Below are positions 1,779 to 49,308 of a stretch of 64,000 nucleotides of DNA, one piece after another; positions within the stretch are counted from its first letter, which is position 1; each line of letters starts with the position of its first letter. This DNA is from Microbacterium sp. Its GTDB lineage: Bacteria > Actinomycetota > Actinomycetes > Actinomycetales > Microbacteriaceae. The notes under the pieces were generated by a model. The model was not told the DNA's origin. It saw nothing but the letters and a program-made list of their open reading frames with translations, and did no database searches. The DNA lies in the NCBI RefSeq assembly GCF_044340635.1, contig NZ_JBIITF010000004.1:153731-217730 (forward strand). The letters run 5' to 3'. Made by a program: the position numbers and the translations under genes.

Positions 1779-1830
1779 CTAGGGAGCGCACGAGCGCCGG
1801 GCACGGGGTTGACGGGGAATGGCAAGAGCC

Positions 1831-1925
1831 CTACCGCGGACCGAGCGGAACGGGTCTACCGCGGACCGAGCGGAACGGGTCTACCGCGGACCGAGCGGAA
1901 CGGGTCTACCGCGGACCGAGCGGAA
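1831..1925. repeat. 25-bp tandem repeat, about 3.8 copies
   Basis: CTACCGCGGACCGAGCGGAACGGGT at 1831, 1856, 1881 and a partial copy at 1906 that contains the stop codon of the 1906-3234 gene. Confidence 0.95.
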
Positions 1926-3234
1926 GCGGTGCGCGCAGGCCGTAGATGTGCAGTGCGCCGGGCCCGCCCGCGAAGAATGTGTCGAGCGTCGGCGGGGCTG
2001 TGACCGGCACCACGGTGACCAGGTCGTCAGCGAACCGGGCGAGCTCGGCATCCGAGGCGCTCGGCGAACGTCCGTCGTCGCCGACCGCCGCGCTCACGAC
2101 GCCCGCGAGCTGGGTGTGCGCGCGGTACCGCGGGTTGGCCGGGTCGACGTAGTTGCCGTAGGCGCTCCGTACCCCGAAGACCGATCCGGAGCCCGCGGGC
2201 AGGATGCTGTCGCCGACCGCAAGCTGACCGTCGACGTTGAAGGCGTAGCCGCCCGCGGTCGACGCGATCGATCCGGGCGCGAGGGTCGCACCGCACGAGG
2301 GGACGATCTGCAGGTCGATCCCGTCATCTCCCCTCGGCCAGCGCGTGCGCGACATCGCGCCCCGCAAACGGGCATCAGCGTGATCGAGACAGATCTCGAC
2401 CGCGATGTCGGTGGCGGGTCCATCCGTCGTCCCGAGCCGCAGGATCGCGTGGGCATCGAACGGGTCGCGCTTGAGGTCGCCCGCCGACAGATCGACATAG
2501 GGGTGTGCCGACATCTGCTCGGTCACGACGTCGTCGCGACCGGTGACGTCCCAGAGCACGAGGTCCTCGGCGGAGTCGAAGACCTTGTCTGTCGTGGCGG
2601 TGTGCGCGGCGAACGTCGCCCCTGCGGAGCCGAGCGGGGTGGCGCTCACGATCAGCGCGCGGTTGCGTACCTGGACGACCGGATGCGCGTGGCCCCACTG
2701 CAGGTAGTCGTCGATCATGTCGAAGACCTTCGCCGCGTCGTCAGCCGCCGCCTGACGGTACCGGTGCGCGAGGTCGGCGACGACGCCGTTCCGCACCGTC
2801 GTCGTGGCGCGCGAGAACACCTCGCGCGGGTCATCCGCCGCCGCGGTGACCGCGGTGCCGAAGACGAAGACCCAGTTCGGGTACTCGTCCGGCGGGAACT
2901 CCGCGGCCAAACGCTCGAGGATGTGGTCGACCGGGTCGGGCGCGCCGGTCGCGTGCAGATACGGGCCCTGGGGCCCGTGCCAGAAGAACTCGGGGGCGAC
3001 GAAGACGTTCAGCACATCGGTCTCGCCCTCCGGCAGCGCATCGCGGGCCGCGTGGACGGCCGCGCGCATGACCGAGAGCCTGCCCCCGACATCCGCCGCC
3101 ACATCGCCGAGACCGAGGTACGTGCCGCCCATCGCGGACCCGCGGTCGGGGTTGCCGAGGGGCACGATCATCGCCGGGGCGGTCGGGATCGCGTAGCCGA
3201 TAAAGCGCACGTGTGCGAAACCCTCCGAGCCCAT
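1906..3234 (-). CDS. Hypothetical protein, probable divergent nitrilase/carbon-nitrogen hydrolase fold
   Basis: 442-aa ORF with a TAGGAT-N6-ATG leaderless-type start; candidate Glu-Lys-Cys triad in FVAPEFFW, TTDKVFDS and VEICLDH. Confidence 0.6.
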   Translation of the reverse strand: MGSEGFAHVRFIGYAIPTAPAMIVPLGNPDRGSAMGGTYLGLGDVAADVGGRLSVMRAAVHAARDALPEGETDVLNVFVAPEFFWHGPQGPYLHATGAPDPVDHILERLAAEFPPDEYPNWVFVFGTAVTAAADDPREVFSRATTTVRNGVVADLAHRYRQAAADDAAKVFDMIDDYLQWGHAHPVVQVRNRALIVSATPLGSAGATFAAHTATTDKVFDSAEDLVLWDVTGRDDVVTEQMSAHPYVDLSAGDLKRDPFDAHAILRLGTTDGPATDIAVEICLDHADARLRGAMSRTRWPRGDDGIDLQIVPSCGATLAPGSIASTAGGYAFNVDGQLAVGDSILPAGSGSVFGVRSAYGNYVDPANPRYRAHTQLAGVVSAAVGDDGRSPSASDAELARFADDLVTVVPVTAPPTLDTFFAGGPGALHIYGLRAPLPLGPR

Positions 3235-3328
3235 GCGGTCATCCTAGGGTCGCGGGCGTAGACAGCCCGGGATCCACGGCCCACGACCTACGGCTGACCA
3301 TGGCGCGCGCGTCATACGATAGAGGGCT

Positions 3329-6300
3329 ATGCCCGCGCCCGTCCCCGTGATCTCGTTCCCGCCGGAGCTGCCCGTCAGCGCCGCCCGGGAAGAGATCGCG
3401 CGCGCCATCGAGGGCAACCAGGTCGTGATCGTCGCCGGTGCCACCGGGTCGGGCAAGACGACGCAGTTGCCGAAGATCTGCCTCGAACTCGGCCGCACCC
3501 GCATCGCCCACACGCAGCCGCGGCGGCTCGCGGCGCGGACGATCGCCGAGCGCATCGCCGAAGAGCTCGAGGTGCCCCTCGGCACCCTCGTCGGATACAA
3601 GGTGCGGTTCACCGACAACGTGTCCGACCAGACCCTCGTCGCGCTGATGACCGACGGCATCCTGCTGAACGAGATCCACCGCGACCGGTTGCTGCGCCGC
3701 TACGACACCATCATCATCGACGAGGCTCACGAGCGCAGCCTCAACATCGACTTCCTGCTGGGGTACCTGACGCGGATCCTGCCGGAGCGCCCCGACCTCA
3801 AGATCATCGTCACGTCGGCGACCATCGACCCGCAGAGTTTCGCCGCGCACTTCGCGGATGCCGCGGGCACACCTGCCCCGATCGTCGAGGTGTCGGGGCG
3901 GACGTTCCCCGTCGACATCCGGTACCGCCCTTTGGTGGGCGAGGCGGACATCCCGAAGGATCGATCGGGCCGAGCGGGCGCGGAACGGGCCGACGAGGCG
4001 ACGTCAGCCCCATCGCACCTCCGAGATGTTCGGGGCGGGGAGGTCCCTTCGACAAGCTCAGGGACCGAACACGGCTCACCCACGGTCCCTGAGCCTGTCG
4101 AAGGAACCAGCCGCGCCCCGGTCGACGAGCGTGCGTACGACGTCGACGTCGACGAGGTCGCCGGGATCGTCGCGGCGCTGCGCGAACTCGACCGCGAGGC
4201 ACCGGGCGACGTGCTGGTGTTCCTGCCGGGCGAGGCCGAGATCCGAGATGCCGCCGATGCCGTCCGGGGCGCCTACGCGCAGGGCGCGGCCCCCACCGAG
4301 GTACTCCCGCTGTTCGGACGGCTGTCATCGGCAGACCAGCACCGCGTCTTCGAGCCCTCGCGGGTCGCGGGCGTGCGGCGCCGGGTGGTGCTGGCGACCA
4401 ACGTCGCCGAGACGAGCCTCACGGTGCCCGGCATCCGTTACGTGATCGACGTCGGCACGGCCCGAATGTCGCGCTACAGCAATCGCGCGAAGGTGCAGCG
4501 GCTGCCGATCGAGGCCGTGTCGCAGGCGTCGGCGCAGCAGCGTTCCGGCCGCGCCGGACGTACGAGCCCCGGCATCGCAATCCGCCTGTACGCCGCGGAC
4601 GACTTCGCCAAGCGCCCCGAGTTCACCGAACCCGAGATCCTCCGCACGAGCCTGGCCTCGGTCATCCTGCAGATGCTCTCGCTCGGCTTCGGCGACATCG
4701 AGGCCTTCCCGTTCCTCACCCCGCCGGACTCCCGCGGCGTCAAGGCCGCACTCGACTTGCTCGGCGAGCTCGGCGCCGTGGAACCCGGGCGAGGCGCCCC
4801 GCGCCTCACGCGCATCGGGCGCGACATCGCGCGGATGCCGATCGACCCCCGCTTCGCCCGCATGCTGATCGAGGCGCAGCGCACCGGCGCCATTCACGAG
4901 GTCCTGCCGATCGTCGCGGGCATGTCCATCCAGGATGTCCGCGAGCGCCCCGAAGAGCGCCGCGAAGAGGCAGACCGGTTGCACGCGCGCTTCGCCGATC
5001 CGACGAGCGACTTCCTCGCGCTGCTCAACCTCTGGAATCACCTGCAGGAGGCGCAGCGCGAGAACGGATCGAGCGCGTTCCGGCGCCTGTGCCGCGCCGA
5101 GCACCTCAACTATGTCCGCGTGCGGGAGTGGTTCGACGTGCACCGGCAGATCCGCAGCCTCGTCCCCGCGCAGAAGCGCCCGCGCGAGGGTGCCCGTTCC
5201 GACCGCGCCGGTTCCACCGCCGACGAGCAGGCCCTCGACCCCGCCGCGATCCACCGCGCGATCCTCGCGGGTCTGCTCTCACACATCGGCCTGATCGACG
5301 AGCGCGCCGCGCAGAAGGGCGCCGCCCCAGCCCGCCCCGCACCGGCCTCGGAGTATCTCGGAGCCCGAGGCATCCGATTCGCCATCTTCCCCGGCTCGGG
5401 GCTCCGCAAGGCCCGACCGAAGGCGGTCATGGCCGCCGAGCTGGTCGAGACCTCACGTCTCTACGCCCGCACGGTCGCCGCGATCGATCCCGCCTGGGCC
5501 GAGCCCCTCGCGGGTGATCTGGCGAAGCGCCAGGTCAGCGAGCCGCACTGGTCGAAGGATGCCGGGGCCGCCGTCGCGTTCGAGAAGGTCACGCTCTTCG
5601 GGGTCGAGATCATCCCCCGCCGTCGGGTGCAGTTCGCTCGCATCGACCGCGCTGGCGCACGGGAGCTCTTCGTCCGCCACGCCCTGGTCGAGGGCGAATG
5701 GGATCCGTCGACGATCGACAAGCGCCTGACGAGTTTCGCGCGCGCGAACGACGAGCTGCGCCGCCGCCTCGAGCGGGTCGAAGAGCGCGAGCGTCGGCGC
5801 GACATCCTCGCCGGCGACGAGGCCGTTTTCGCGTTCTACGACGCGCGCATTCCGCGGGAGGTCTTCGACGTCCGGTCCTTCGAGAACTGGTGGCGTGAGG
5901 CATCCGCTCACACGCCCAAACTTCTCACGATGCGCGAGCAGGATCTGCTCGAGGGCGAGGCGCGATCGGATGCGGCGGACTTCCCGACCCGTTGGACCCA
6001 GGGCGATCAGACCCTCACCCTCGCCTACCGGTTCGAGCCGGGTGCACCCGATGACGGGGTCGCGGTGATCGTGCCCCTGGCGCTCCTCGCGAGCGTCCGC
6101 CCGGATGGCTTCGACTGGCAGGTTCCCGGGCTGCGACCGGATCTCGTGACGGCGCTGCTGCGAGCGCTGCCGAAGTCCATCCGGCGACACGTCGTGCCCG
6201 CGGCGGACTGGGCCGCAAGATTCGCCGAAGACCTGGCCGGCGCCGGCCCCGAGAACCACGCGGGTCTTCCCCCGACGTCTCTCGCCACGGCGCTGGCGAA

Positions 6301-7450
6301 GCTCGTGCAGCGGGTCGCCAACCAGCCCGTGACGGTCGATGACTTCGAAATGGACCGGGTTCCCGCGCACCTGCGTCCGACTTTCCGTGTCGTGGACGAG
6401 CGTGGACGCACGGTCGGGTCGGGGCGCGACCTGCGCGAGTTGCAGGAGACCCTGTCGGGCCGTGCGCGCGAGAGCGTCGCGACCCGTCTCGCGGCCCCGC
6501 CATCGACGGGGAAGCCTCGGCGTGGCGCGGGTCCGGCCGCGCTGGTCGATCCGTCGCCGAGCACCGGCGCCTCCGTCCGCGAGCGCGAGGGAATCACCAC
6601 CTGGGACCTCGGTGACCTACCGTCCGTCGTCGATACGCGTGTCGCGGGAGGTGTCGTCCGCGGCTATCCGACACTCGTCGATGACGGCGCGAGTGTTTCG
6701 CTCCGCATCGAGACGACCCCGGATGCCGCCGAGCGAACCTTGCGGGTCGGCATCCGCCGACTCGTGCTGCTCGCCGTGCCCTCGCCCGTTTCGTACGTGC
6801 AGGAGCACTTGACCGCGAACGAGAAGCTCGCCCTCGCCGCCTCGCCGTACGCCTCGGCGAAGGCGCTGATCGAGGATTGCCGTGCGGCGGCTGCGGACAC
6901 GCTGATCGGCACGGTGGCGCCGACCGGCGTGGTCCGCAGCGCTGAGGACTTCGCGCGCGTGCGCGATGCGGTCTCGGCCGGGATCGTCGACGCGATGTTC
7001 GCCGCCGTATCGCTGACCGCCCGCATCCTGTTGGCCGCGCGCAACGTCGACAAGGCCCTTCGCGGGCAGAACGCCATGACCCTGCTGGGTGCTCTCGGCG
7101 ATGTGCGCGCGCAGGTCGCGGGCCTGATCTATCCGGGATTCGTGCTGCAGACCGGCACCGCCCGTCTGCCCCATCTGCTCCGGTATCTCGAGGGCGCGCG
7201 CCTGCGACTCGAGGAGCTCGCCGACACCCCGGGTCGCGATCGCCAGCGAATGACCGAGTTCGAACGGGCTGCCGCCCTGTACGCCGAAGCGGGTGGGACG
7301 ATCCCGGTGAGCCCGGATGCCTCGCCGGCCCTCGTCCACACCCGCTGGTTGCTCGAGGAGTACCGCGTCAGCCTGTTCGCGCAGCGCCTGGGCACTGCGG
7401 AGCCCGTCTCGCTCCCCCGCATCACGAAGGCCCTGCGAGAGGGCTCCTGA
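3329..7450 (+). CDS. hrpA: ATP-dependent RNA helicase HrpA
   Basis: GATGSGKT, DEAH, SAT, ATNVAETS, QRSGRAGR motifs; C-terminal RWLLEEYRVSLFAQRLGT (DUF3418-type). Confidence 0.96.
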   Translation: MPAPVPVISFPPELPVSAAREEIARAIEGNQVVIVAGATGSGKTTQLPKICLELGRTRIAHTQPRRLAARTIAERIAEELEVPLGTLVGYKVRFTDNVSDQTLVALMTDGILLNEIHRDRLLRRYDTIIIDEAHERSLNIDFLLGYLTRILPERPDLKIIVTSATIDPQSFAAHFADAAGTPAPIVEVSGRTFPVDIRYRPLVGEADIPKDRSGRAGAERADEATSAPSHLRDVRGGEVPSTSSGTEHGSPTVPEPVEGTSRAPVDERAYDVDVDEVAGIVAALRELDREAPGDVLVFLPGEAEIRDAADAVRGAYAQGAAPTEVLPLFGRLSSADQHRVFEPSRVAGVRRRVVLATNVAETSLTVPGIRYVIDVGTARMSRYSNRAKVQRLPIEAVSQASAQQRSGRAGRTSPGIAIRLYAADDFAKRPEFTEPEILRTSLASVILQMLSLGFGDIEAFPFLTPPDSRGVKAALDLLGELGAVEPGRGAPRLTRIGRDIARMPIDPRFARMLIEAQRTGAIHEVLPIVAGMSIQDVRERPEERREEADRLHARFADPTSDFLALLNLWNHLQEAQRENGSSAFRRLCRAEHLNYVRVREWFDVHRQIRSLVPAQKRPREGARSDRAGSTADEQALDPAAIHRAILAGLLSHIGLIDERAAQKGAAPARPAPASEYLGARGIRFAIFPGSGLRKARPKAVMAAELVETSRLYARTVAAIDPAWAEPLAGDLAKRQVSEPHWSKDAGAAVAFEKVTLFGVEIIPRRRVQFARIDRAGARELFVRHALVEGEWDPSTIDKRLTSFARANDELRRRLERVEERERRRDILAGDEAVFAFYDARIPREVFDVRSFENWWREASAHTPKLLTMREQDLLEGEARSDAADFPTRWTQGDQTLTLAYRFEPGAPDDGVAVIVPLALLASVRPDGFDWQVPGLRPDLVTALLRALPKSIRRHVVPAADWAARFAEDLAGAGPENHAGLPPTSLATALAKLVQRVANQPVTVDDFEMDRVPAHLRPTFRVVDERGRTVGSGRDLRELQETLSGRARESVATRLAAPPSTGKPRRGAGPAALVDPSPSTGASVREREGITTWDLGDLPSVVDTRVAGGVVRGYPTLVDDGASVSLRIETTPDAAERTLRVGIRRLVLLAVPSPVSYVQEHLTANEKLALAASPYASAKALIEDCRAAAADTLIGTVAPTGVVRSAEDFARVRDAVSAGIVDAMFAAVSLTARILLAARNVDKALRGQNAMTLLGALGDVRAQVAGLIYPGFVLQTGTARLPHLLRYLEGARLRLEELADTPGRDRQRMTEFERAAALYAEAGGTIPVSPDASPALVHTRWLLEEYRVSLFAQRLGTAEPVSLPRITKALREGS
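3944..4033. repeat. 90-bp imperfect hairpin (family A) inside hrpA
   Basis: Left arm GCGGACATCCCGAAGGATCG, right arm GCACCTCCGAGATGTTCGG; same arm spacing (71 nt) and length as the hairpin at 38223-38312. Confidence 0.85.
4046..4104. repeat. REP-like inverted repeat (family B) inside hrpA
   Basis: 22-bp arms CCTTCGACAAGCTCAGGGACCG / CGGTCCCTGAGCCTGTCGAAGG, one mismatch, 15-nt loop. Confidence 0.9.
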
Positions 7451-24781: not shown

Positions 24782-24867
24782 CGAAACACCCCTGCTGCTA
24801 CGAAACACCCCTGCTGCGCTGAGACACCCTGTGTCGCGGGGTGTTTCGACGCGTTCGGGGTGTTTCG
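24782..24867. repeat. Nested hairpin (family C) with an extra 19-bp duplication
   Basis: CGAAACACCCCTGCTGC x2 (24782, 24801), GAGACACCC (24821), inverted GGGGTGTTTCG at 24838 and 24857. Confidence 0.85.
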
Positions 24868-24891
24868 CCAGGCCGCCCAGCGTATGCGCCG

Positions 24892-25412: not shown

Positions 25413-25573
25413 GCGGGGCCTTTCAGGATGTGAGCGGAGCGTGCCGGAGTGGATCATCGGCGCGCGCAGGCTTGTCTACCCGCCCCTGCACATTCCCCCG
25501 TACACAGCTTGGCGAAACCGTAGCAGCAACGCCCGGCCTGCAGCGATTCACACGGACGGCGCCCGCCGCCGCG

Positions 25574-25640
25574 CGAAACACCCCTTCCGTGACGAGACAC
25601 CCCGCGTAGGCGGGTGTCTCGGCGCAAAAGGGGTGTTTCG
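25574..25640. repeat. Nested 67-bp hairpin (family C)
   Basis: CGAAACACCCCT..CGAGACACCCC-loop-GGGTGTCTCG..AGGGGTGTTTCG. Confidence 0.85.
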
Positions 25641-37690: not shown

Positions 37691-38167
37691 CTAGTCGACC
37701 TTCGTCACGGCGCCGCCCGTGATGCGCACGAGCTCGTCGAACGACAGCGGGAAGACCGTGTGCGGTGTGCCGGCTGCGGCCCACAGCTCCGGGTACGCGG
37801 CGAGGTGCTCGTCGACGATCGTCGTGAGCTGCGCGGGGTGTCCGGTCGGGGCGACTCCCCCGATGGCCTGACCGGTGGCCTCGCGTACCTGATCGGGTGT
37901 TGCTCGCACGATCGACTGCCGGCCGATCCGTGCCGCCAGGGCATCGGTGTCGACCCGGTGCGAGCCGCTCGTCATGACCAGCAGCGGCTCGCCGTCGCTC
38001 CAGAACACCAGGCTGTTGGCGATCGCCCCGACATCGACGCCCAGCGCCGCTGCGGCGAGCGCGGCGGTCGATGCGGCATCGGGCAGCACGACGATCTGAC
38101 CCGGGACGCCGGCCTCGGCGAGGCGGTCGGCGACGATTCTGCTGCGGGGCGAGAGGTCTGCGTTCAC
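37691..38167 (-). CDS. YbaK/EbsC aminoacyl-tRNA editing family protein
   Basis: IANSLVF, SGSHRVD, TGQAIGGVAP, WAAAGTPH. Confidence 0.9.
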   Translation of the reverse strand: MNADLSPRSRIVADRLAEAGVPGQIVVLPDAASTAALAAAALGVDVGAIANSLVFWSDGEPLLVMTSGSHRVDTDALAARIGRQSIVRATPDQVREATGQAIGGVAPTGHPAQLTTIVDEHLAAYPELWAAAGTPHTVFPLSFDELVRITGGAVTKVD

Positions 38168-38222
38168 GGATCCACCCTAGAGGGGGGTTCGCGGGGTCGT
38201 GCAGCGACGGCGCCACCTCGTC

Positions 38223-38312
38223 GCGAACATCTCGAAGGGACGATCCGCGATTTTCGCCCGGATTCGTGCTGATTCGGGCCTCAAACGCGTGTGGCACCTC
38301 CGAGATGTCCGC
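38223..38312. repeat. 90-bp hairpin (family A) overlapping the DUF559 gene 3' end
   Basis: GCGAACATCTCGAAGGGA ... GCACCTCCGAGATGTCCGC, plus an inner stem GCCCGGAT/ATTCGGGC. Confidence 0.85.
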
Positions 38313-39159
38313 TTCGGCCCGCGCGCAGCATCCCGGCGATGGCCTCGATGACAACCTCCGGGCGGTACAGAATGTCCTCCGCGGCAGGACGAATCCTGAC
38401 GTACCCGCGCGCGGCGAGCGCGAGATCCCGACGCCTGTCGTCGAGTTGCTTCTGCCATTCCGAGTGGTACGCGCGACTGTCGCACTCGATCACGAGCCAC
38501 CCATCGACGACCATGTCGACCCGCCCGACACCCCGGATTCTCACCTGCAGATCGACACTCCCGCCGAGCGCCCGCACCATGAGACGAACCAGCGTCTCGG
38601 TTCCGGCTTCCGCACGGCCATCGATGTGTTGCCGGATCTCACGACGCCTGGCGGGGATCACGGCGAACATCTCGTCGAGTTCATCGGCCCGCACGATTCC
38701 ACAGTTCAGAGCCGAGTCGATCGAGGCGATGGCCGCGTGCGGTGACTGGCAGATCACGGCTTGCCGGAGCGCGTCGAGCGGCTCGACCACGAGCGCGCGG
38801 GGATGCACGACGCGTAACAACCGCCCCCAATGCCGAACGGTGGCGTCGCCCGGACCGCGGATCGCCCCGTTCGTCCGCATGTGCGCATGCACCCCGTGTC
38901 GCTCCTGAACGAAGACATCCCAGAGCTCCAACGCCGACACGCAGCCGACAAGCCCGCCCGCGCGCGCCGCTGTTTTGATCGCCTCGGGTTCGCTCGCTGC
39001 GACGTACACATCGTTCCGCGCACGAACCAACGACCCACTTCTCAGCTCGTGAGAAATCTGGCGACGGCTATGACCCGCCGCCCTCAGGTCGGCGTAAGAG
39101 CGGGAGCGATGGGCGACCCGGACACTGTTCATGGCGACAGGCTGGCGACCCCCGAACAT
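38281..39159 (-). CDS. DUF559/Vsr-like PD-(D/E)XK endonuclease with AbiEi-like N-terminal HTH
   Basis: RAEAGTETLVRL, GRVDMVVDGWLVIECDSRAYH..DRRRDLAL; start uncertain (39159 or 39132). Confidence 0.8.
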   Translation of the reverse strand: MFGGRQPVAMNSVRVAHRSRSYADLRAAGHSRRQISHELRSGSLVRARNDVYVAASEPEAIKTAARAGGLVGCVSALELWDVFVQERHGVHAHMRTNGAIRGPGDATVRHWGRLLRVVHPRALVVEPLDALRQAVICQSPHAAIASIDSALNCGIVRADELDEMFAVIPARRREIRQHIDGRAEAGTETLVRLMVRALGGSVDLQVRIRGVGRVDMVVDGWLVIECDSRAYHSEWQKQLDDRRRDLALAARGYVRIRPAAEDILYRPEVVIEAIAGMLRAGRSGHLGGATRV

Positions 39160-39269
39160 CGACACACGTCGAACCGGTGCAATGGTGGACAGGCCTTCTC
39201 CAGCCCCGGTTGTGGAGGGACAACCGCGAGACACAGCGAGCGCACGCACAGCCGGCGGGGTGACGCGAC

Positions 39270-39359
39270 GCGAGCATCCGAGAGGTGCCGTGGTGCGCAC
39301 GACGTCTGGTGTGCAACAAAAGCCACAAGAACAACGCTTGGTACCTCTCGGGTGTTCGC
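39270..39359. repeat. 90-bp hairpin (family A) upstream of the DUF559 gene
   Basis: GCGAGCATCCGAGAGGTGCC pairs with GGTACCTCTCGGGTGTTCGC, 17/20; all three mismatches are G.T-compatible. Confidence 0.85.
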
Positions 39360-39422
39360 CGCGGCGCCGAACCGGCGCGCGGGGCCGGGAATGTACATGC
39401 GCGCACATGCGTTTAACCCCCC

Positions 39423-40475
39423 ATGCACCGCAAACGCATCGGGTTCCTCAGCTTCGGCCACTGGCACCCCCACCACTCGAGCCAGACGAACACGGGCGGC
39501 GACGCGCTGCTTCAATCGATCGAGCTGGCCGTCGCGGCGGAGGAACTCGGCATCGACGGCGCCTACTACCGCGTGCACCACTTCGCACGCCAGCTCGCGA
39601 GCCCCTTCCCGCTTCTCGCCGCCGCGGGCGCCCGCACGAGCCGCATCGAACTCGGCACGGGCGTCATCGACATGCGGTACGAGAATCCCCTGTATATGGC
39701 CGAAGAGGCCGCGGTAGCCGACCTGATCAGCGGCGGCCGACTGCAGCTCGGCCTGAGCCGGGGGTCACCCGAGCCGGCACTCAACGGATCACACGCATTC
39801 GGCTACGTCCCCGCTGAGGGCGACACCGAGGCAGACCTCGCGCGCCGCAAGACCGAACTGTTCCGCACCGCGATCAGCGGCGAGCGGATCGTGCGAGCCG
39901 ACCCGCGCATGAGCGGCGACGGGGCCCTCGTGATCCAGCCCCAGTCCCCTGGCCTTTCGGACCGCATCTGGTGGGGCTCCGGCACCCGCGAGACCGCCGT
40001 CCGCACGGCGGAACTCGGCATGAACCTCATGTCATCCACCCTCCTGGTCGAAGACACGGGCGTGCCCTTCGACGAGCTGCAGCTGGAGCAGATCGAGATG
40101 TTCCGCGCGGCCTGGGCCGAGGCCGGCTGGGACCGCGAACCGCGCGTCAGCGTGAGCCGCAGCGTGATTCCGATCACGAGCGACCTCGACCGCCAGCTCT
40201 TCAGCTCCCGCGAGGACAGCCAGGATCAGGTCGGAATCCTCGAGGGCGTGCGAGCGCGGTTCGGCAAGAGCTACACCGGCGAACCCGACGCGATCGCGGC
40301 CGAGTTGGCGCAGGATGCCGCGGTCCAGGCGGCCGACACCGTTCTGCTGACCGTGCCCAACCAACTCGGGGTCGAGTACAACGCACGCATGCTCGAGACG
40401 ATAGCCCGCGAGATCGCCCCGGCGTTCGGGTGGTCGAGAGAGGAAGCTGCGGAGCCCGTAGGCCGCGGGCGGTAG
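39423..40475 (+). CDS. Luciferase-like (LLM) flavin-dependent oxidoreductase
   Basis: GFLSFGHW, RVHHFA, IELGTGVIDMRYENP, RIWWGSG. Confidence 0.9.
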   Translation: MHRKRIGFLSFGHWHPHHSSQTNTGGDALLQSIELAVAAEELGIDGAYYRVHHFARQLASPFPLLAAAGARTSRIELGTGVIDMRYENPLYMAEEAAVADLISGGRLQLGLSRGSPEPALNGSHAFGYVPAEGDTEADLARRKTELFRTAISGERIVRADPRMSGDGALVIQPQSPGLSDRIWWGSGTRETAVRTAELGMNLMSSTLLVEDTGVPFDELQLEQIEMFRAAWAEAGWDREPRVSVSRSVIPITSDLDRQLFSSREDSQDQVGILEGVRARFGKSYTGEPDAIAAELAQDAAVQAADTVLLTVPNQLGVEYNARMLETIAREIAPAFGWSREEAAEPVGRGR

Positions 40476-44429: not shown

Positions 44430-44505
44430 TGGTGGACCTGAGGGGATTCGAACCCCTGACCTCTTCATTGCGAACGAAGCGCGCTACCAACTGCGCCACA
44501 GGCCC
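44430..44505 (-). tRNA. tRNA-Ala (anticodon CGC)
   Basis: GGGCCTGTGGCGCAGTTGGTAGCGCGCTTCGTTCGCAATGAAGAGGTCAGGGGTTCGAATCCCCTCAGGTCCACCA, 76 nt with encoded CCA. Confidence 0.97.
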
Positions 44506-44893: not shown

Positions 44894-44945
44894 GCAGACC
44901 TGCAGGACGAAGCGGCTCGCACCCACGGGGGCGGGCCGCTTTTGC

Positions 44946-45011
44946 GTGCGCGGCTTTTAGGTGCGCGGCTTTTAGGTGCGCCGCTCTTAGGTGCGCCGCT
45001 CTTAGGTGCGC
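44946..45011. repeat. 15-bp tandem repeat, 4 copies plus a partial
   Basis: GTGCGCGGCTTTTAG x2, GTGCGCCGCTCTTAG x2, then GTGCGC. Confidence 0.9.
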
Positions 45012-45038
45012 AGCCGCGCCCGTCGCGAACGAGTTCCG

Positions 45039-49192: not shown

Positions 49193-49211
49193 CCCGCGCT
49201 CCCGTGCTCCC

Positions 49212-49282
49212 AAAACAGGAGATCCGCCGAAAACAGGACGTTTCGGGCGCAATCGTCCTGTTGCGGGCGACTCTCCTGTTTT
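49212..49282. repeat. Nested hairpin (family D)
   Basis: AAAACAGGAG..AAAACAGGACG-loop-CGTCCTGTT..CTCCTGTTTT between convergent genes. Confidence 0.82.
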
Positions 49283-49308
49283 CGGGCGACTCGGCAACGT
49301 GAGCGAGG

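What the first reader, a model, noticed from the sequence alone, without database searches (positions are those of the whole stretch)
3944..4033. Codon-aligned 90-bp hairpin inserted in frame in HrpA
Seen: the element starts on a codon boundary and adds exactly 30 aa (ADIPKDRSGRAGAERADEATSAPSHLRDVR) in the linker between the two RecA domains. The left 25 nt match the DUF559-flanking hairpin at 20/25 (GCGGACATCCCGAAGGATCGATCGG vs GCGAACATCTCGAAGGGACGATCCG). The right arm matches at 17/18, and arm spacing is identical (71 nt). Established: Rickettsia palindromic elements insert in frame into genes. Inference: the same kind of repeat-derived protein growth is happening here, with a candidate source element in the same window.
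Basis: partly seen in the sequence, partly recalled or inferred. Interest (0 to 1): 0.85.

Follow-up and report, generated by a model that had tools for sequence, protein, structure and literature searches.

The report
Hairpin repeat translated inside HrpA helicase
A 90-base hairpin repeat that normally sits between genes has been built, in frame, into a flexible loop of a Microbacterium RNA helicase, and the repeat belongs to a family whose paired copies flank a small nuclease gene, which points to a so far undescribed repeat-plus-nuclease partnership.

Summary
Window 3944-4033 starts on a codon of the 1373-aa HrpA ORF and adds 30 aa. It is a full-length member of a 19-copy, about 90-nt hairpin family ("A") in this Microbacterium genome. 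A profile built without it still finds it at E=5e-12. A REPIN-like doublet of a second repeat ("B", 127 arms genome-wide) follows it directly at about 4034-4113.

E. coli HrpA, other genera and most Microbacterium species lack both blocks. The insert lies in the RecA1-RecA2 connector, and the model gives it pLDDT below 50.

The insertion is not recent. Six closely related HrpA genes carry a 90-nt block at the same codon. It comes in two sequence types whose distribution conflicts with the gene tree, and all copies still fold as hairpins. One sister lineage carries a different palindrome instead.

Paired A hairpins bracket an AbiEi-HTH/DUF559 nuclease gene, here and in another species. There the whole 1.25-kb cassette sits in a spacer that is empty in this genome. 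Homologous genes across the genus are flanked by their own hairpin types, with about 35-40 solo copies per genome. No RAYT gene is present.

Verdict: a real, RPE-like case of repeat-derived protein growth. The nuclease partner is inferred from association only.

The parts
3329..7450 (+). HrpA (DEAH-box RNA helicase) ORF, 1373 aa, uninterrupted
   Evidence: Pfam DEAD, Helicase_C, HA2_C, OB_NTP_bind and DUF3418 are recorded for it. E. coli HrpA structures match at E=6e-73.
3944..4033 (-). Hairpin repeat A, 90 nt. It is read in frame on the + strand as 30 aa (ADIPKDR...HLRDVR). The family-consensus orientation is the minus strand.
   Evidence: Leave-one-out nhmmer E=5.4e-12, minus orientation 47.3 bits against 32.3 bits on plus. 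CM 75.9 bits. Orthologous 90-nt blocks occur at the same codon in six related HrpA genes.
4034..4113 (.). Repeat B: an inverted doublet (REPIN-like) of the genome's abundant REP. Arms are 4042-4066 and 4084-4108. It is read in frame as GGEVPSTSSGTEHGSPTVPEPVEGTS.
   Evidence: Fold -67.9 kcal/mol, z=-8.65. The 19-mer arm core has 127 copies against 0-6 for scrambled cores. The block is absent from all eight closest HrpA homologues.
38221..38313 (-). Hairpin A copy at the 3' end of the DUF559 gene. The gene's stop codon (38281-38283) lies inside the hairpin.
   Evidence: nhmmer and CM hits. Fold z=-3.35. ORF listing.
38281..39159 (-). AbiEi-like HTH + DUF559/REase_MTES_1575 (Vsr-like PD-(D/E)xK) gene, about 292 aa (start uncertain). 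It is the candidate partner of family A.
   Evidence: Pfam MTES_1575 33.8 bits and DUF559 18.9 bits, both just under the cut-off. Genome scan 20.8 bits, over the cut-off. The G178 homologue has AbiEi_4.
39269..39361 (+). Hairpin A copy upstream of the DUF559 gene, inverted relative to the 3' copy
   Evidence: nhmmer 51.7 bits, CM 64.8 bits.

Best explanation
Shown: the connector between the two RecA domains of HrpA in this Microbacterium carries two intergenic-type palindromic repeats inserted in frame. These are a 90-nt hairpin of family A (30 aa) and, right after it, an inverted doublet of the abundant REP B (about 26 aa). The ORF stays open. The extra roughly 56 residues sit in a connector that varies from about 10 to 60 aa across orthologues and is modelled as disordered.

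Shown: block A is old. It sits at the identical codon in at least seven species-level lineages, always 90 nt, and it still folds as a hairpin in each.

Shown: the block occurs in two sequence types whose distribution conflicts with the HrpA tree. One nested lineage has a different palindrome (C) instead.

Inferred: the segment turns over by recombination or gene conversion, and the connector acts as a landing pad where palindromes accumulate next to each other, as they do in intergenic repeat islands.

Inferred: family A is the non-autonomous (solo) population of a hairpin-nuclease system. A pair of inverted A hairpins brackets a single AbiEi-HTH/DUF559 (Vsr-like) nuclease gene. This roughly 1.2-kb cassette is insertion-polymorphic between species. 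Homologous genes throughout the genus are flanked by their own hairpin type, which also exists as about 20-40 fixed-length solo copies in the same genome. The nuclease would recognise the conserved hairpin base and nick or process it, mobilising or maintaining the hairpins in trans, as RAYT transposases do for REPINs.

Inferred: selection only lets stop-free insertions of 3n length into tolerant loops survive inside genes.
For: - Family membership: E=5.4e-12 without self; 19 loci.
- Intergenic habit of the other copies.
- Covarying basal stem: (4 of 12 pairs with double changes).
- Orthologues lacking the block.
- No counterpart in E. coli HrpA.
- AF2 pLDDT below 50 for residues 190-274, RecA cores about 75-95.
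- Shared 90-nt block in P0002-P0006 and P0009.
- Hairpin kept across these copies: 84.7% of cells paired, 10/27 pairs changed on both sides, 0/500 shuffles reach the score, slid controls 30-51%.
- Tree incongruence and nested loss.
- Block divergence decoupled from gene dS.
- Cassette in the window.
- Same architecture in G178 (hairpins at 1501-1593 and 2585-2677 around a 287-aa homologue).
- Empty trpS-GNAT spacer in G000.
- 13/30 homologous loci have flank-to-flank matches of at least 28 bits, against a control 95th percentile of 24.3.
- G079: 71 arms against 3 control. G147: 81 against 2. The gene is bracketed in both.
- Other DUF559-type genes in G000 have their own hairpin families.
- No Y1 transposase in the genome.
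Against:
- No target-site duplication or clean filled/empty pair was found for a solo A hairpin. The two G115/G000 differences examined look like a deletion remnant and a messy repeat island.
- The nuclease link is by association only. 17 of 19 A copies are not next to a DUF559 gene, and the protein's Pfam scores are at or just under the cut-offs.
- The hairpin energy of the HrpA copy is not better than shuffles on the coding strand.
- Types I and II could be two independent family members. Part of the 'compensatory change' signal would then reflect origin rather than selection in place.
Confidence: 0.8

Rival explanations
1. The hairpins are not mobilised by the DUF559 nuclease. They spread or persist by another route (host recombination, replication template switching, an unseen transposase). 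They merely flank DUF559 genes, for instance as terminators or insulators of a defence-type gene, or because such genes land in repeat islands.
For: Association is the only evidence for the partnership. Hairpins cluster with unrelated REP-B copies in intergenic islands. The AbiEi-type HTH is known from abortive-infection and toxin-antitoxin contexts (Pfam name). 17 of 30 loci showed no strong flank match.
Against: Both flanks carry the same hairpin type, and the type changes together with the gene from genome to genome. Control genes rarely show such flank matches. The whole hairpin-gene-hairpin unit is present or absent as one block.
Confidence: 0.3
2. The HrpA hairpin is kept because it works as nucleic acid: a structured element in the hrpA mRNA, an antisense RNA, or a DNA cruciform site. 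It is not merely tolerated as neutral linker peptide.
For: Pairing is retained across seven lineages with double changes. Within-type nucleotide divergence of the block (0.11-0.33) is below synonymous divergence of the rest of the gene (0.35-0.45), while its amino-acid divergence is 3-10 times higher than that of the rest. Folding is better on the minus strand, as for 14 of 18 family members.
Against: Low block divergence can equally come from recent recombination, which the tree incongruence indicates. One nested lineage (P0007/P0008) lacks the block entirely. No Rfam family matches the family copies scanned in the window.
Confidence: 0.2
3. Solo hairpins, including the HrpA one, are solo-LTR-like scars. 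A whole hairpin-DUF559-hairpin cassette inserted, and recombination between the like arms of its two hairpins then deleted the gene.
For: The two hairpins of a cassette share their terminal arms in direct as well as inverted register, so such a deletion is mechanically possible. A truncated arm remnant exists at G000 C19:118376-118396.
Against: It needs a 1.2-kb gene-disrupting intermediate in hrpA, followed by a deletion that restores the frame. About 20-40 solos per single cassette would need many such cycles.
Confidence: 0.1
4. The block is an ancestral, fast-evolving low-complexity linker, and its likeness to the repeat family is coincidental.
For: The connector is length-variable and acidic or low-complexity in all orthologues.
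Against: E=5.4e-12 full-length match to a profile that excludes it. Identical 90-nt length and paired ends. Absent in the nearest sampled outgroup, other genera and E. coli.
Confidence: 0.01

Closest known systems
Rickettsia palindromic elements (RPE; Ogata et al. 2000, 2002, as summarised in PMC10969869)
   Same: A dispersed palindromic repeat is inserted in frame into a housekeeping gene, adds a short peptide at a tolerant surface position, is conserved across related species, and the ORF is kept intact.
   Different: The phylum is unrelated (high-GC Actinobacteria) and there is no sequence relation. The element is shorter (90 nt against about 100-150). Family A copies show no preference for an open reading frame (10-17 of 18 open in any frame). 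The interior is variable and only the hairpin base is conserved. A candidate partner gene exists, whereas none is known for RPEs.
REPIN / RAYT systems (Bertels and Rainey 2011, PMC3116915; Di Nocera et al. 2013, PMC3733652)
   Same: Tens of fixed-length hairpin repeats per genome have conserved arms and a less conserved middle. A single-copy gene is flanked by the same repeats. The repeat type co-varies with the gene from genome to genome.
   Different: The flanked gene is an AbiEi-HTH + DUF559/MTES_1575 PD-(D/E)xK (Vsr-like) nuclease, not a Y1 HUH transposase. No PF01797 gene is present in the genome. There is no GTAG/CGTC tag, and the hairpin is one long stem rather than two short REPs. Repeat B in the same linker looks more like a classical REP doublet, but it also has no RAYT.
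Bacterial MITEs found inside genes (ERIC, BOX, Correia; review PMC10969869)
   Same: Small size, terminal inverted repeats, occasional in-frame fusions with host ORFs.
   Different: No transposase-bearing parent IS with the same ends and no target-site duplication was seen. The only gene sharing the ends is a nuclease of a family not known to transpose.

Membership tests
RPE-type protein-coding palindromic insertion (as a kind, not the Rickettsia sequence families) | Member of a multi-copy palindromic repeat family in the same genome | tested here: met
   19 loci. The HrpA copy is found at E=5.4e-12 by a profile that excludes it.
RPE-type protein-coding palindromic insertion (as a kind, not the Rickettsia sequence families) | Inserted in frame, with the host ORF intact and orthologues lacking the block | tested here: met
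   Codon-aligned 90 nt in a 1373-aa open ORF. Absent in most of the genus, six other genera and E. coli.
RPE-type protein-coding palindromic insertion (as a kind, not the Rickettsia sequence families) | Sits at a structurally tolerant, surface position | tested here: met
   RecA1-RecA2 connector. pLDDT 26-32 over the insert against 75-95 in RecA1. Prediction only.
RPE-type protein-coding palindromic insertion (as a kind, not the Rickettsia sequence families) | Transcribed and translated with the host protein | not testable with these tools
Rickettsia RPE sequence families | Sequence homology to RPE-1 to RPE-10 | not tested
   No RPE sequences were compared. The GC content and phylum differ, so no membership is claimed.
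REPIN/RAYT | Cognate Y1 (RAYT) transposase gene flanked by the repeats | tested here: not met
   PF01797 has no match in the genome, while 6 of 14 control genomes ring. The flanked gene is DUF559-type.
REPIN/RAYT | Fixed-length hairpin population with conserved arms and a variable centre | tested here: met
   88-90 nt between conserved ends in at least 15 copies. G079 hairpins are 98 nt and G147 hairpins 78 nt.
MITE | Terminal inverted repeats and small size | tested here: met
   GCGAACATCYSRGAGG ... CCTCYSRGATGTTCGC, 90 nt.
MITE | Target-site duplication and a parent IS encoding a transposase with the same ends | tested here: inconclusive
   No duplication is recognisable at the sites compared. 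The only longer unit with these ends encodes a nuclease, not a known transposase.
HrpA (DEAH/RHA helicase) | RecA1, RecA2, HA2, OB and DUF3418 domains in order | tested here: met
   Pfam domains on record. E. coli HrpA structures at E=6e-73.
DUF559 / REase_MTES_1575 (Vsr-like PD-(D/E)xK) for the partner gene | Profile match above the curated cut-off | tested here: inconclusive
   MTES_1575 33.8 against 38.2 bits and DUF559 18.9 against 20.6 bits on the protein. 20.8 bits, over the cut-off, in the six-frame genome scan. The catalytic residues were not examined here.

The most novel reading that the evidence does not exclude
Microbacterium genomes hold a REPIN-like symbiosis whose protein partner is not a RAYT transposase. 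It is an AbiEi-HTH/DUF559 (Vsr-like PD-(D/E)xK) nuclease. Each such gene is bracketed by, and co-diversifies with, its own family of about 80-100-nt hairpins that also populate the genome as tens of solo copies. These hairpins, together with ordinary REPs, are repeatedly written in frame into proteins (HrpA here, and REP-B arms in IleRS, CarB and NadA). That would define a new class of nuclease-associated mobile or maintained hairpin DNA and give a function to the large, uncharacterised DUF559 family in Actinobacteria.
Probability: 0.45. Interest if true: 0.85.

Novelty: new variant of a known kind. Interest (0 to 1): 0.62.

Why it matters
In-frame palindromic repeats in housekeeping proteins are textbook only for Rickettsia. 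This is a clean case in a free-living high-GC actinobacterium, and it has a time axis. The same codon holds a 90-nt hairpin in seven lineages, in two exchangeable types, and different palindromes are stacked next to it. One can therefore study how selfish or structural DNA becomes linker peptide and how long the nucleic-acid structure survives inside a coding frame.

The more consequential point is the partner gene. If DUF559-type nucleases maintain or move their flanking hairpins, the REPIN/RAYT paradigm has a mechanistically different second instance. It would also give a widespread domain of unknown function a testable role.

Tried and rejected
- Rfam: no family matches the hairpins. The whole window gave only a tRNA at gathering threshold, and an E-value scan of 37900-39600 (which holds the two A copies that flank the DUF559 gene) gave only chance-level hits.
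- RAYT: no Y1 transposase in the genome, so the REP/RAYT filing was dropped.
- Selection for translatability of family A: frames are open about as often in all six frames, so this was rejected.
- Other A copies inside genes: C7:63578, C29:88382 and C7:149954 turned out to lie in over-extended 5' ends of my crude ORF calls. Only the DUF559 C-terminus and a possible Ada-AlkA C-terminal tail use A sequence.
- Clean filled/empty sites for solo hairpins between G000 and its near relative G115: one difference is a deletion remnant and one is an unalignable repeat island.
- Synteny around the window's cassette: the neighbouring LLM oxidoreductase is only 53-64% identical in ten relatives, so no orthologous empty site was obtained.
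- Long HrpA linkers of other species (G005, G011, G016, G019): no significant hairpin was found (z above about -2), so they cannot be claimed as further insertions.
- G115 lacks hrpA in its 63%-complete assembly.
- The 76-nt inverted arms at 24801/25565 bracket only a small membrane-protein ORF, not a nuclease.

Full report
**What is there.** The window is C7:153731-217730 of a 3.27-Mb, 68% GC genome. Names attached to the closest proteins place it in Microbacterium. The ORF 3329-7450 (+) encodes a 1373-aa HrpA. Position 3944 is a codon start. The copy at 38223-38312 shares the ends GCGRACATCYCGAAGG ... CACCTCCGAGATGTYCG with identical spacing, but its interior differs (51/90 identical).

**Is it more than chance?** Yes.
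- A paired-arm scan found at least 15 loci with the ends CGAACATCYSRGAGG ... CCTCYSRGATGTTCG exactly 88 (±1) nt apart.
- nhmmer and a covariance model give 19 loci.
- A profile built without the HrpA copy finds it full length at E=5.4e-12.
- The basal stem covaries: ATCCGAGAGG/CCTCTCGGAT against ATCTCGGAGG/CCTCCGAGAT, with 4 of 12 pairs changed on both sides.
- All copies fold as long imperfect hairpins, 14 of 18 better in one orientation. The HrpA copy lies in the opposite orientation to that consensus.
- The folding energy of the HrpA copy alone is not better than shuffles on the coding strand (z=+0.74).
- The family copies scanned in the window match no Rfam family.
- The other copies are intergenic. 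Apparent intragenic cases were over-extended ORF calls.

**A second repeat.** Directly after A, about 4034-4113 is a very stable hairpin (-67.9 kcal/mol, z=-8.65). It is made of two inverted arms of the genome's abundant REP. The 19-mer core CCCTGAGCCTGTCGAAGGG has 127 copies at up to 3 mismatches, against 0-6 for scrambled cores. A and B also lie side by side in intergenic islands of a relative.

**Is it an insertion?**
- In 40 relatives the HrpA match breaks at residues 201-208 and resumes at 265-274.
- Connectors range from about 10 to 60 aa.
- G148, the nearest sampled species representative at 78% identity, has RALVADDEAATYDVDGDE in this position.
- E. coli HrpA (8po6) aligns over 172-269 and 265-375, and the insert has no counterpart.
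- An AlphaFold model of residues 1-480 gives pLDDT below 50 for 190-274 and about 75-95 for the RecA1 core.

**Age and dynamics.** The closest homologues in the large protein collection show that A is not recent. P0002, P0003, P0004, P0005, P0006 and P0009 all carry a 30-aa block at the same place. P0007 and P0008 lack it but carry another palindrome-coded block (DDVSSRALGAR...VVERAQRDETT), which P0002 has in addition to A. B is unique to this genome.

The DNA of seven genes shows a 90-nt block at the identical codon in two types:
- Type I, GCGGACATCC...GATGTTCGG: ours, P0002, P0005, P0009.
- Type II, GCGGAAATCTCGAAGGAAA...TTTCCTTTCAGATTTACAC: P0003, P0004, P0006.

Every copy folds as a hairpin, better on the minus strand. 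On the seven-sequence alignment, 84.7% of cells pair and 10 of 27 pairs have changes on both sides. No shuffle in 500 reaches the score, and slid controls pair only 30-51%.

The HrpA tree without the connector groups ours with P0003 and P0007/P0008, and P0006 with P0009. The two types and the absence are therefore incongruent with descent. Block divergence is decoupled from the gene:
- ours against P0003: block 0.47, synonymous 0.30.
- ours against P0002: block 0.18, synonymous 0.44.

I read this as recombination or conversion of a cassette-like segment. How much of the retained pairing is selection and how much is origin remains open.

**What family A is.** An earlier first-reader note (e1-5271136) proposed that two A hairpins bracket a DUF559 gene at 38223-39359. 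I tested this.
- The copies at 38221-38313 (-) and 39269-39361 (+) flank a roughly 292-aa AbiEi-HTH + DUF559/MTES_1575 protein. Its stop codon lies inside the hairpin.
- In G178 a related hairpin pair (1501-1593 -, 2585-2677 +) flanks a 287-aa homologue.
- That 1.25-kb unit sits between trpS and a GNAT gene. In G000 the same spacer is about 40 nt.
- The gene family occurs in 93 of 151 sampled Microbacterium genomes.
- In 13 of 30 loci the two flanks match at 28 bits or more. For random G000 genes the 95th percentile is 24.3 bits.
- The matches are 80-100-nt hairpins with shared ends and different interiors.
- The hairpin type around the gene is also dispersed: 71 arms against 3 control in G079, and 81 against 2 in G147, at fixed spacing.
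- Other DUF559-type genes of G000 have their own hairpin families.
- There is no Y1/RAYT transposase in the genome.

The pattern is that of REPIN/RAYT systems, but with a PD-(D/E)xK nuclease. Two searches of the held literature found nothing on this. It remains association. No cleavage, no target duplication and no clean solo insertion was seen.

**Generality.** REP-B arms lie in frame inside IleRS (twice), the carbamoyl-phosphate synthase large subunit, the NadA C-terminal region and a DUF6716 glycosyltransferase. Pfam confirmed the identity of IleRS, NadA and DUF6716. CarB is named from its sequence only. An A copy may form the C-terminal tail of an Ada-AlkA protein. These cases were not checked against relatives.

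**Comparison and verdict.** The mode is that of Rickettsia palindromic elements (PMC10969869), in a different phylum and with unrelated sequence. The family organisation is closest to REPINs (PMC3116915), but the defining RAYT is absent. I rate it a new variant of a known kind. The in-frame insertion is secure. The nuclease partnership is the interesting, unproven part.

**Limits.**
- The genus scans scored only 14 candidates per genome, so copy numbers in relatives are lower bounds.
- The genomes of the closest relatives are not held.

Noticed in passing
G000 contigs C28:28146-31802, C25:245458-248763, C7:29798-31225, C19:46031-47368 (outside the window): REP-B arms lie in frame in IleRS (two sites, APSTGSG and VPSTGSG), CarB (DPSTGSG), the C-terminal part of NadA (LPELVEG...LASTGSA) and a DUF6716 glycosyltransferase. 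Repeat-coded peptides may be common in this proteome.
   Followed up: partly
G000 C20:80833-82581 (outside the window): An Ada-AlkA ORF runs through an A hairpin (RANISEVPH...LLPDVRR) for its last roughly 38 codons and ends overlapping the start of the next gene. This is a possible repeat-derived C-terminal tail.
   Followed up: partly
window 38281-38313: The DUF559 gene's last roughly 10 codons and its stop codon lie inside the 3' A hairpin.
   Followed up: yes
window 49209-49285: This hairpin (ACAGGAGATCCGCCGAAAACAGGAC...) is of the same family that flanks the DUF559 gene at C14:85502. It sits just upstream of the large helicase-Vsr-like ORF flagged by another first-reader note.
   Followed up: partly
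L006 (G008 HrpA): Another species' HrpA carries PSTSSGTSG, the REP-B arm peptide, in a different loop of RecA1 (HFAPSTSSGTSGDPAPI).
   Followed up: no
window 1806-1955: A 25-nt unit (CTACCGCGGACCGAGCGGAACGGGT) is repeated head to tail four to five times at the start of the ORF 1819-3261.
   Followed up: no
window 44930-45014: A 15-nt tandem repeat (GGTGCGCGGCTTTTA-like, about 5 copies) lies roughly 430 nt from the tRNA gene at 44433-44505.
   Followed up: no
window 24801-24876 and 25565-25640: 76-nt inverted arms (78% complementary, CGAAACACCCC-rich) bracket 688 nt that hold only a 104-aa membrane-protein-like ORF.
   Followed up: partly
L077 (G074) and P0015: In a more distant clade the HrpA connector reads ADTTQENRDD...LLRDVR, which looks like a decayed A-type block. 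The insertion may therefore be older than the nine-member clade.
   Followed up: no
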